Origin: Heptranchias perlo
Lineage: Eukaryota
Direction: 5' to 3'
Length of the DNA: 44,083 nt
NCBI RefSeq assembly: GCF_035084215.1
Contig: NC_090332.1
Span: 7,068,001-7,112,083 of the forward strand
Made by a program: the position numbers and the translations under genes. Below the pieces are notes generated by a model. It ran no database searches and was not told the DNA's origin. It saw nothing but the letters and a program-made list of their open reading frames with translations. Below are positions 39,323 through 42,004 of this stretch, in pieces. Each line of letters begins with the position of its first letter. The first letter of the stretch is position 1.

Positions 39323-40956
39323 GTAAGGAGTCTCCAGCCTCAAACCCACTGCCAGAAATAACTTCTGATCTGACAGTTGCTGTTTAATGGCAACATGTTA
39401 GTATTTTTTTAACCACAAATTGGTTTGATTTATTTCCAGTCACCAGTTGCGGTGTTTTAGATCCTTAAAACCTGTACTCCAATCATTTTTTAAAAAAAAT
39501 CTGTAACTTTTAACGAGTTGTTGATGTAAAGGGTTAGAAGGTTTTACTGTTTAACTAGAACAGTTAAATCCTCCAGACTTTCTGCTTGCATATATATTTG
39601 TGTTTTGCTGTACAAAATCCACGGGTTGCTGTGGATTTACTTTAAGATAAAATGTAATGTATATTTGTAACGGTCTTATATGCTTAAGGGATATATGTCT
39701 AATTCCTAAAGATATATCATATCTAAGGGCTTTGTAGGTGTATTTAAGCGTTACAACAATCTATGTTTAAGAATATATACACTTAATTACTTATATTTAA
39801 AGTTTAAGTGTTTTACATATATATTTAAGAATTTTACCGAAGTGTATTTAAGGGTTCTATCTATGTATTCGAGTGTTTTTATTTATTTATTTATATAAAA
39901 TATTTCAGGATTTTATGTTATATAAGGGTTATACTTATATTTAAAGGATATATGAATATATTTTAGGATTAAATAGGTTATTCATAAGGATTTATACATA
40001 CATATATAGAAGGGTTTTATATAAATGTAATTAATTCTTGATATTTCGTCGCAGACTGTGATTGAGGTTAAGACTCAGATATGCTTTGCCTTGCGCTGAT
40101 CCCTCAAACTTTTTAAAATAAAAAAGGTAATAAGAGGAAAACTGCACCCCGTTTTCCTCTTATTACCTTTCTTATTTTAAAGAGTCTCAAGTAAACATAA
40201 ATAAAGCACCGGATGTAAAACATTCATAGTTTTTATTTTTTTTTAAAAAAGTACTGGATTAAATGGTGAGAGAGAGAGACCCTGGACGGGTAGCAGTCCC
40301 CAGTGATTCACCCCTTGGTTGAACAGCCCCGTCACCTGCTTGGTGTGGTGTTTAGCGGCTAATTAGTGCTTGTGACCGCTCAGACGGCGAGCCATCAAGT
40401 CTCAATCCACATCGCACGGGATACACATTCACCTTTACAGTTACATTTAGCCCAAATCGGCTTTACACACTTAAAACATCAGCAGCCCCCATCAACTGGG
40501 TGTGAAAACTGGGCAGATCGTCTCCAGGGCCCAGACCCCCGCTCCCATCTGATAATTGCTGTCTAGGCGATTGCTGTTCCGGTGGTGATCTGCTCGCACT
40601 ACACATTCATTACAGATGTGCATTCCTCTCATTTCCACCGCCCACCCCCCTCAATCCTCTCCAAGGGGACATCTCAACCAATTCCACAAACTAGATTCCA
40701 CCTGCCCACACTTCAAAAGTTCAACACTAATAATTCAGGCTTTTAGAATGGATTAAATTTTCGATTGTTTTCTTGTAAAAAGAAATAGAGACTTGCATTT
40801 ACATAGTGCCTTTCATGACTGCAGGATGTCCAAAGTGCTTTAGAGCCAATGAATTACGTTTCAGATTATGATGTGGAGATGCCGGTGATGGACTGGGGTT
40901 GACAATCTGAAACAATTTCACAACACCAAGTTATAGTCCAGCAATTTTATTTTAAT

Positions 40957-40995
40957 TTCACAAGCTTTCGGAGGCTTCCTCCTTCCTCAGGTGAA
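40957..40995 (-). ncRNA. Mirror copy of the minimal hammerhead motif on the minus strand
   Basis: Exact reverse complement of 41027-41065 within the perfect palindrome. Confidence 0.7.
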
Positions 40996-41026
40996 TTTTG
41001 TGGAAAAAATTTTTTTTTCCACAAAA

Positions 41027-41065
41027 TTCACCTGAGGAAGGAGGAAGCCTCCGAAAGCTTGTGAA
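41027..41065 (+). ncRNA. Minimal type I hammerhead ribozyme motif (Penelope-like element associated)
   Basis: UUCAC - CUGAGGA - A - GGAGG/AAG/CCUCC - GAAA - GCUU - GUGAA: stem I, conserved core, 5-bp stem II, palindromic AAGCUU in place of stem III. Confidence 0.7.
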
Positions 41066-42004
41066 ATTAAAATAAAATTGCTGGACTATAACTTGGTGTT
41101 GTGAAATTGTTTCAGATTATCTGATTATCTCATTGCTGTGCGCAAGATCCCACAAACAGCAATGTGGGATAATCAGATAATCTGAAACAATCAGGACACC
41201 CCTGCTTCTCTTCGAGATTAGTGCCGTGGAGATCTGTTACGTCCACTTGAGAGGGCACACGGGACCTCGGTTTAACGTCTCATCCGAAAGACGGTACCTC
41301 CGACAGTGCGGCACTCCCTCAGTAGCGGGTAATAAGACCAATTTAACTGGGAGGAAGAGAGAGAGAGAGAGAGGGAACGAAATATTTCAAAACATCTGGG
41401 GGATGACTGTTCACTGAAGGCTGCTTTAGTGCTAGACAAAAAGATGAGATAAAGATGTTTAGGAAATCAAACAAAAGAAGAAATCCTCTTTGAGAAGAAT
41501 GGGGCATTGATGTGGAGGGAGTGACCTCAGTAAACAGCAGCCTGTACCTGTTAATTAAAGGCAGACAGGGAACAATTGCCCTTAAGATAAGCCTCCTCCT
41601 TGGCTGGGTTTGCCTGATTTACGAAGCTGTAGGTTGGCAAGTACCAGATAATTGTGTGTTTCCAGGTTGTCATGATGTGGAGGTGAGGACACCTATTGTG
41701 AGGACACCTATTCATTCATAGATCGTTGCAACTTGCTTCTTAAAGGTGTCATTTTGCCTTTGTTCTGTAGTATCTAGCCCGGTTACACCGTACTTTCTTG
41801 ACAGTTTTCTCCCTTTCGCCTGTCCTAAAGGTGCTGATTTATGCCAGGACACCGTTCTGGTCACCCTCCGGTACCTGACCTAAGTGAGTCGGGGCAGTAA
41901 GTGTTCAGGTTATTCGACTGCAGGGGCATCTGCTGAGTATGATCCTATCCTCACCCATACTCCACGCACTTACTCTTTCCACTGGAGGTCACTTGAAAAA
42001 GAAA

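What the first reader, a model, noticed from the sequence alone, without database searches (positions are those of the whole stretch)
40904..41118. Perfect 215-bp palindrome encoding a hammerhead ribozyme on both strands, inside DACT2 intron 1
Seen: 106-bp arms with no mismatch around a TTT loop. Each arm holds UUCAC-CUGAGGA-A-GGAGG(AAG)CCUCC-GAAA-GCUU-GUGAA. Known: CUGANGA...GAAA...NUH is the hammerhead core, and Penelope-like retroelements carry minimal type I hammerheads with a tiny palindromic stem III that cleave as dimers. Inference: the DACT2 pre-mRNA contains a ribozyme directly preceded by its own perfect antisense, so it could form a 106-bp dsRNA (ADAR/Dicer substrate) that locks the ribozyme off, or cleave if folded otherwise. 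The DNA could form a cruciform. Perfect arms suggest a recent insertion or ongoing gene conversion. The predicted cleavage triplet is CUU, which is typically weak.
Basis: partly seen in the sequence, partly recalled or inferred. Interest (0 to 1): 0.7.

Follow-up and report, generated by a model that had tools for sequence, protein, structure and literature searches.

The report
Fold-back Penelope retroelement stump in shark
The perfect 215-base palindrome with a ribozyme motif on each strand is real, but it is most likely the ordinary truncated, folded-back stump of a very abundant Penelope-like jumping element in a shark intron, and the hairpin is predicted to keep its ribozyme switched off.

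Summary
The palindrome is confirmed: 106-bp perfect arms, a TTT loop, and a minimal type I hammerhead per strand. It lies 1.6 kb into intron 1 of a gene identical to Heptranchias perlo DACT2.

The real unit is 40870-41108, inserted in an old SINE. It has a 12-bp target-site duplication and a 34-nt tail on one arm only. That is the published anatomy of 5'-truncated Penelope-like insertions with an inverted copy.

Contigs from three DNA runs show a huge repeat family. They give 242 joints; the 15 shown are left-to-right fold-backs at other points. Exact contigs cover this centre and two outer junctions at near single-copy depth, so an assembly artefact is unlikely.

On either strand the antisense arm is transcribed first, so the ribozyme is predicted never to fold in cis. 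No link to an RT/endonuclease ORF could be tested. No host function is supported.

One detail is of interest: three bases inside the tail-bearing arm match the target site rather than the family. This suggests that arm was copied from the other arm plus its target primer.

The scan noted this same kind of element in two other genomes.

The parts
39077..39322 (+). DACT2 (dapper homolog 2) coding exon 1; donor GT at 39323; everything downstream in the window is intron 1
   Evidence: Pfam Dapper E 5e-19; 100% identical to H. perlo dapper homolog 2; only residues 1-82 map to the window
40772..40857 (-). 3' part of the host SINE-like repeat
   Evidence: 75-82% matches to four other copies in the window
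40858..40869 (+). left copy of the 12-bp target-site duplication GTTTCAGATTAT
   Evidence: exact direct repeat of 41109-41120, not extendable either way; family 3' end placed independently at 40868/9 by mixed loose ends (table 7)
40870..40903 (-). 34-nt 'tail' of the element, present at this end only (family end reaches 40868)
   Evidence: high family depth from the 40848-78 bin on, loose ends at 40868/40869; no counterpart on the right arm
40904..41009 (-). left arm: 5'-truncated pLTR-like end, sense on the minus strand
40904..40913 (-). inverted copy of 10 bp of the target site inside the tail-bearing arm; 40907-40909 read CTG where both family variants seen read TGT
   Evidence: exact match to the duplication; table 7 (loose ends behind 40905 and 40906)
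40957..40995 (-). minimal type I hammerhead motif, minus-strand copy
41004..41018 (.). fold-back centre A6-TTT-T6
   Evidence: exact 62-nt contig 40980-41041 in run X2, depth 4.6 (table 8)
41013..41118 (+). right arm: tail-less inverted copy (41013-41108) plus 10 bp of the right duplication
   Evidence: a family contig stops matching at 41112
41027..41065 (+). minimal type I hammerhead motif, plus-strand copy (same strand as DACT2); predicted cut after 41060 (CUU)
   Evidence: features as in PMC4209133
41109..41120 (+). right copy of the 12-bp target-site duplication
41106..41191 (.). second hairpin (24-bp plus 9-bp arms) made of rearranged SINE sequence; the insertion sits at its foot
41192..41318 (-). 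5' part of the host SINE-like repeat
   Evidence: 82% to the copy at 32590-32712; alignment

Best explanation
This is most likely a single, 5'-truncated, head-to-head insertion of an abundant Penelope-like retroelement end, with a 12-bp target-site duplication and a one-sided 34-nt tail, whose hairpin is predicted to keep the hammerhead inactive on both strands. Shown: the palindrome, the duplication, the tail, the repeat family, other fold-back junctions, the host SINE and the intron. Inferred mechanism: the element's endonuclease nicked both strands 12 bp apart. Reverse transcription was primed from the target at the two start sites that bracket the tail. One short cDNA stopped about 25 nt past the hammerhead, folded back on an A/T run and copied itself, so the arms are identical and share variants that most family copies lack. 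The product is a dead, non-coding passenger in DACT2 intron 1. Any transcript through it reads the antisense arm first and would zip into about 106 bp of dsRNA. That RNA may be edited or diced like any inverted repeat, but without a selected role.
For: Exact 12-bp direct repeats at the ends, with the left end fixed independently by family loose ends at 40868/9 (83+39 contigs in X1, consensus agreement 0.37). Tail of 34 nt on one arm; 30-40 nt on one end is reported for Penelope-like elements (PMC8557442), and a 31-bp tail with 8-10-bp duplications in PMC3846280. The hammerhead has all the sequence marks listed for metazoan Penelope minimal hammerheads: extra base between 9 and 10.1, G10.1-C11.1, palindromic 15.2-16.2. 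That paper also reports pairs 100-700 bp apart on opposite strands (PMC4209133). Summed contig depth is about 0.8-2e6 on the left arm and tail against 7-8 on unique flanks in X1 (not a copy number). All 15 shown joints of 242 run from the left arm to the right arm, and 14 of 15 lie within 13 nt of symmetric (re-pairing null mean 7.0, p 0.0004). The arms share non-majority states: 40956 T where about 95% of family depth has A, and TTT behind 40995 where 20-29 loose-end contigs per DNA run read CGA. Folding: hairpin -184 kcal/mol against -12 for the hammerhead alone; stem I probability 0.7-0.99 alone and about 1e-46 in context; core unpaired under 0.001 at every transcript length tested on both strands.
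Against: No reverse transcriptase or GIY-YIG ORF could be linked to this repeat, because no genome is held and collection scans gave only chance hits; membership rests on terminal anatomy. Rfam has no hammerhead hit. The joint statistic uses only the 15 best-supported of 242 rows, its rows are not independent, and end points cluster where this copy differs from the family (41027, 41067), so clipping may inflate the symmetry. The empty allele was not seen. All runs are one sample and may be the source of the assembly. The order of priming events is inferred from one locus.
Confidence: 0.88

Rival explanations
1. A self-propagating non-autonomous palindromic element (MITE-like or retrozyme-like) that moves as a ready-made hairpin unit.
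For: One other fold-back junction (40996 to 41030) has depth about 620-640 in X1/X2 from 2 contigs, against 7-8 for unique DNA, so some junctions may be multi-copy. Near-identical centres with 3- or 6-nt gaps occur at depth 7-9 (tables 5, 8).
Against: Junctions differ among contigs (15 distinct shown, 227 more not shown). This locus's own centre is at depth 4.6. The arm holds sequence matching this target site. Non-LTR retrozymes are defined as tandem head-to-tail units with two or more hammerheads on one strand, which is not the case here.
Confidence: 0.05
2. A host-domesticated RNA switch: the intronic hairpin or ribozyme regulates DACT2 (cleavage, editing or small RNAs), like the conserved intronic hammerheads of amniotes.
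For: It lies in intron 1 with one hammerhead on the sense strand. Conserved intronic hammerheads exist in amniote genes such as RECK (PMC6155905).
Against: It sits inside a decayed SINE with an intact duplication. The ribozyme is minimal; such motifs showed no activity as monomers and low activity as dimers, and the Anolis one needed the element's protein. It is predicted to be masked in cis. No conservation data exist either way.
Confidence: 0.03
3. A fold-back assembly or library artefact.
For: No listed contig spans the whole stretch. No exact contig over the right arm/duplication junction is among the 32 pieces shown. The centre is a homopolymer, and variant centres occur.
Against: The two outer ends are not mirror images: the tail is on one side only, and direct 12-bp repeats flank the unit. 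Exact contigs cover the left junction (40824-40888, depth 6.7), the centre (40980-41041, depth 4.6) and 41142-41277 (depth 6.5-6.8) against flank depth 6.5-8.
Confidence: 0.03

Closest known systems
Insertion units of endonuclease-positive Penelope-like elements (Penelope/Poseidon, Neptune): pLTR with adjacent inverted 5'-truncated copy and tail (PMC8557442, passages and one section read; PMC3846280, passages and Discussion read)
   Same: Head-to-head inverted ends, palindromic junction, 30-40-nt tail on one end, short target-site duplication, heavy 5' truncation.
   Different: No ORF remains, so the two arms abut as one perfect hairpin. The duplication is 12 bp against 8-10 bp in the rotifer examples. 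The clade could not be assigned. Three target-like bases lie inside the tail-bearing arm.
Minimal type I hammerheads of metazoan Penelope-like elements (Cervera and De la Pena 2014, PMC4209133; parts 1-2 of 4 read)
   Same: CUGANGA core, extra base before stem II, G10.1-C11.1, 5-bp stem I, palindromic 15.2-16.2, no real helix III; opposite-strand pairs already reported.
   Different: Stem II is 5 bp (7-8 bp in the Schistosoma families). Cleavage was not tested here. Sharks are not mentioned in the parts read.
Poseidon of Anolis carolinensis, in vitro mechanism (Frangieh et al. 2024, PMC11167929; parts 1-2 of 4 read)
   Same: Two reverse-transcription start sites bracketing the tail, both strands cut and extended, ATT preferred at the cut. 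The duplication here is AT-rich and contains ATT.
   Different: [quoted passage not shown] Here the target shares 7 of 10 bases with the family's inner end and 2 with its outer end; this is one locus, so it may be chance.
Non-LTR retrozymes (bioRxiv 10.64898/2026.07.22.740005; part 1 of 5 and passages read)
   Same: Non-coding, type I hammerhead, derived from Penelope pLTRs, present in a chondrichthyan, often intronic in Xenopus.
   Different: Retrozymes are head-to-tail tandems with two or more hammerheads per strand; this has one per strand, head-to-head.

Membership tests
Penelope-like element (EN+) insertion | Family encodes RT plus GIY-YIG endonuclease in one ORF | not testable with these tools
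   No genome held; no ORF in this stump; collection scans empty or chance
Penelope-like element (EN+) insertion | Inverted 5'-truncated copy adjoining the 5' end | tested here: met
   Head-to-head arms; other fold-back joints in the family
Penelope-like element (EN+) insertion | 30-40-nt tail on one end only | tested here: met
   40870-40903, 34 nt (36 to the family end at 40868), absent on the right arm
Penelope-like element (EN+) insertion | Short target-site duplication | tested here: met
   12 bp, 40858-69 and 41109-20; empty allele not seen
Penelope-like element (EN+) insertion | Partial-tandem direct pLTRs in the family | not testable with these tools
   Needs full-length copies; no genome
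Penelope-like element (EN+) insertion | Dispersed high-copy repeat | tested here: met
   Depth about 1e5 times that of the flanks and mixed flanks at the 3' end
Minimal type I hammerhead of PLEs | Core CUGANGA / GAAA / NUH with stems I and II | tested here: met
Minimal type I hammerhead of PLEs | Base between 9 and 10.1, G10.1-C11.1, palindromic 15.2-16.2 | tested here: met
   A41039; G41040-C41052; G41057/C41058
Minimal type I hammerhead of PLEs | Self-cleavage as a dimer or with protein | not testable with these tools
   Needs an assay; contigs cannot show RNA ends
Rfam hammerhead families | Match to an Rfam hammerhead model | tested here: not met
   None at gathering threshold or among 58 hits at E<=10
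Non-LTR retrozyme | Two or more tandem units with hammerheads on one strand | tested here: not met
   One motif per strand; no tandem array at the site
Domesticated intronic hammerhead | Conserved at the orthologous intron position across species | not testable with these tools
   No other shark genome DNA available; only one organism holds the stretch

The most novel reading that the evidence does not exclude
The insertion preserves the order of events in Penelope integration. The tail-less end was primed first from the target by partial homology; its cDNA folded back and copied itself right through into the target-derived primer; it then joined a separately primed tail cDNA. This would leave target bases inside the tail-bearing arm. 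If this is general across the many shark copies, it would explain both the inverted arm and the one-sided tail, steps that the literature read here lists as unexplained, and could be tested from sequence alone.
Probability: 0.3. Interest if true: 0.45.

Novelty: new member of a known kind. Interest (0 to 1): 0.17.

Why it matters
As a DACT2 regulator it likely does not matter: it is one of very many similar retroelement stumps. Its value is as a clean fossil of Penelope-type integration. The target-matching bases inside the tail-bearing arm and the near-symmetric fold-back junctions suggest a cheap genome-wide test of how the inverted arm and tail form, which PMC8557442 names as an open question. 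It also warns that perfect palindromes with ribozymes on both strands are expected by-products in shark genomes.

Tried and rejected
Whole genome: not held, so no copy census or ORF link.

Rfam: nothing at gathering threshold; the miRNA-type hits at E<=10 are all below their gathering scores and reflect any long hairpin.

Pattern scans for relatives: hammerhead pattern 0 hits in viral and 0 in metagenome contigs. The 20-nt pLTR pattern gave 0 viral, 1 metagenome and 2 prokaryote-genome hits; none extends beyond 20-28 nt, so they were rejected as chance.

RNA: no RNA holder was listed. Run X5 (RNA by guess only) has family contigs over arms and tail but no cover of the unique flanks; this says nothing on expression of this copy.

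Empty allele: a joint 40869 to 41121 is not among the 15 of 242 joints shown, which is uninformative.

A recalled exon-2 motif scan was uninformative; tblastn settled the point.

The paper on dimeric cleavage of Penelope hammerheads (Lunse et al., recalled) was not held under the DOI tried. A search for Penelope hairpin siRNA evidence gave nothing specific.

Rejected readings: 'recent or gene-converted because perfect' (the bound is too weak); cis dimer cleavage (only one sense motif per strand).

Full report
Observation. The palindrome is real: 40904-41009 and 41013-41118 are exact reverse complements over 106 bp around TTT, and the next-best perfect arm in the window is 20 bp. Each arm carries a type I hammerhead motif. 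On the plus strand: stem I 41027-31/41061-65, core CUGAGGA, one extra A, a 5-bp stem II with G10.1-C11.1, GAAA, GC, UU, and a predicted cut after 41060. Rfam does not recognise it (0 hits at gathering threshold; no hammerhead family among 58 hits at E<=10). The coding exon at 39077-39322 is Pfam Dapper and 100% identical to a protein labelled dapper homolog 2 of Heptranchias perlo. Only residues 1-82 map to the window, so the site is in intron 1 as stated.

Anatomy. The palindrome interrupts a SINE-like repeat on the minus strand: 5' part 41192-41318, 3' part 40772-40857, 74-82% like four other copies in the window. That it belongs to the shark tRNA-derived Deu-domain SINEs is recalled; I saw only search listings on these. 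A 12-bp direct repeat, GTTTCAGATTAT, lies at 40858-69 and 41109-20 and cannot be extended. Between the left copy and the left arm lie 34 nt (40870-40903) with no counterpart on the right. The inserted unit is therefore 40870-41108. A second hairpin of rearranged SINE sequence (41106-41191) begins at the right duplication; whether it predates the insertion cannot be told.

Sequencing runs. Four DNA runs of one sample hold 83-86% of the sampled words. I laid 3 of these 4 and 1 of 3 possible RNA runs, all as contigs, at 90% likeness. Unique flanks have depth 7-8 in X1, while the tail and arms sum to 0.25-2.1 million; this is not a copy number but shows a very large family. Family contigs end at 40868/9 with mixed flanks (83 and 39 contigs in X1, agreement 0.37), fixing the element's 3' end exactly at the duplication. 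A family contig stops matching at 41112. The joint table has 242 rows; the 15 shown all run from left arm to right arm at other points, which I read as fold-back junctions at other loci. Of these, 14 lie within 13 nt of symmetric, against 7.0 when the ends are re-paired at random (p 0.0004). This is weakened by selection of rows, by non-independence, and by clipping where this copy differs from the family. Exact contigs cover the left junction (40824-40888, depth 6.7), the centre (40980-41041, depth 4.6) and 41142-41277 (6.5-6.8). No listed piece spans the whole stretch, and the right arm junction is not among the 32 pieces shown. With the asymmetric ends and direct repeats, an artefact is unlikely, though these runs may be the assembly's own sample.

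The arms descend from one molecule. Both carry T at 40956 (A at 41066), where about 95% of family depth has the other base. Both differ from the family just upstream of the hammerhead (loose ends behind 40995 read CGA in 20, 20 and 29 contigs; the locus reads TTT). At 40907-09 the locus reads CTG, whereas both family variants seen as loose ends read TGT (81-83 and 14-21 contigs per DNA run). CTG is the mirror of CAG at 41113-15, which is SINE sequence (CAG in 4 of 5 aligned copies) and part of the duplication. So target-like bases sit inside the tail-bearing arm. Caveat: contigs of a subfamily that already had CTG would align silently, so such a subfamily is not excluded, and later correction of an imperfect hairpin would give the same result.

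How it likely works. Published Penelope-like insertions are 5'-truncated, often with an adjacent inverted truncated copy and a 30-40-bp tail at one end (PMC8557442, passages). They have 8-10-bp duplications and head-to-head palindromic junctions ascribed to self-priming (PMC3846280, passages and Discussion). In vitro, the Anolis element cuts and extends both strands, prefers ATT, and starts reverse transcription at two sites bracketing the tail (PMC11167929, parts 1-2). I infer: staggered nicks 12 bp apart, priming at the outer and inner sites, early termination about 25 nt beyond the hammerhead, fold-back on the A6/T run, and self-copying. The link to an RT/endonuclease ORF could not be tested (scans).

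The ribozyme. It matches the minimal Penelope hammerhead in the listed sequence marks, and opposite-strand pairs 100-700 bp apart were already reported. Such a motif showed no activity as a monomer and low activity as a dimer (PMC4209133); the Anolis one needed protein and was dispensable for insertion. Alone, this motif folds (stem probabilities 0.7-1.0, -12.4 kcal/mol). In context the hairpin is -184 kcal/mol and stem I falls to about 1e-46. Because the arms are head-to-head, the antisense arm is transcribed first on either strand; the core was paired at all 6 prefix lengths that contained it, on both strands (equilibrium folding, not kinetics). There is one sense motif per strand, so no cis dimer. 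The RNA would be a dsRNA hairpin; editing or dicing is plausible from general knowledge and untested.

Age. Zero differences in 96-106 bp bounds arm divergence below about 3%. At 7e-10 per site per generation (epaulette shark, PMC10587355, passages) that allows about 2e7 generations by my arithmetic, so neither recency nor ongoing conversion is required.

Novelty. The architecture is known, and this is one more instance. Two earlier notes of this scan reached the same reading in other genomes; one pointed me to PMC3846280. I found no account of target bases inside the tail-bearing arm in the passages read or the listings of searches. Subscription papers and supplements were not examined, so absence from print is not established. 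Interest 0.17.

Noticed in passing
window 41106-41191: Second hairpin built from rearranged SINE sequence (24-bp perfect plus 9-bp arms, with a 17-nt microhomology-type deletion in one arm); about 35 and 50 nt of the usual SINE are missing on either side. The insertion sits at its foot.
   Followed up: partly
joint 40996 to 41030: One fold-back junction has depth about 620-640 in X1/X2 from 2 contigs, against 7-8 for unique DNA; a palindromic unit may have been amplified as such elsewhere in this genome.
   Followed up: no
loose ends behind 40905 and 40906: At least two subfamilies share the tail but differ just inside it.
   Followed up: partly
window 40108-40185 and 7890-7970: Small imperfect inverted repeats (35-nt arms, 8-nt loop; 27-nt arms, 27-nt spacer); the first is also in DACT2 intron 1.
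   Followed up: no
window 12874-13779 (+): 301-codon open frame, likely a late exon of the upstream gene; it resembles a mixed-lineage kinase C-terminus by recall only; no significant Pfam hit.
   Followed up: partly
window 43457-44083: 20-nt tandem array (31 copies, 98% matches) running off the window end.
   Followed up: no
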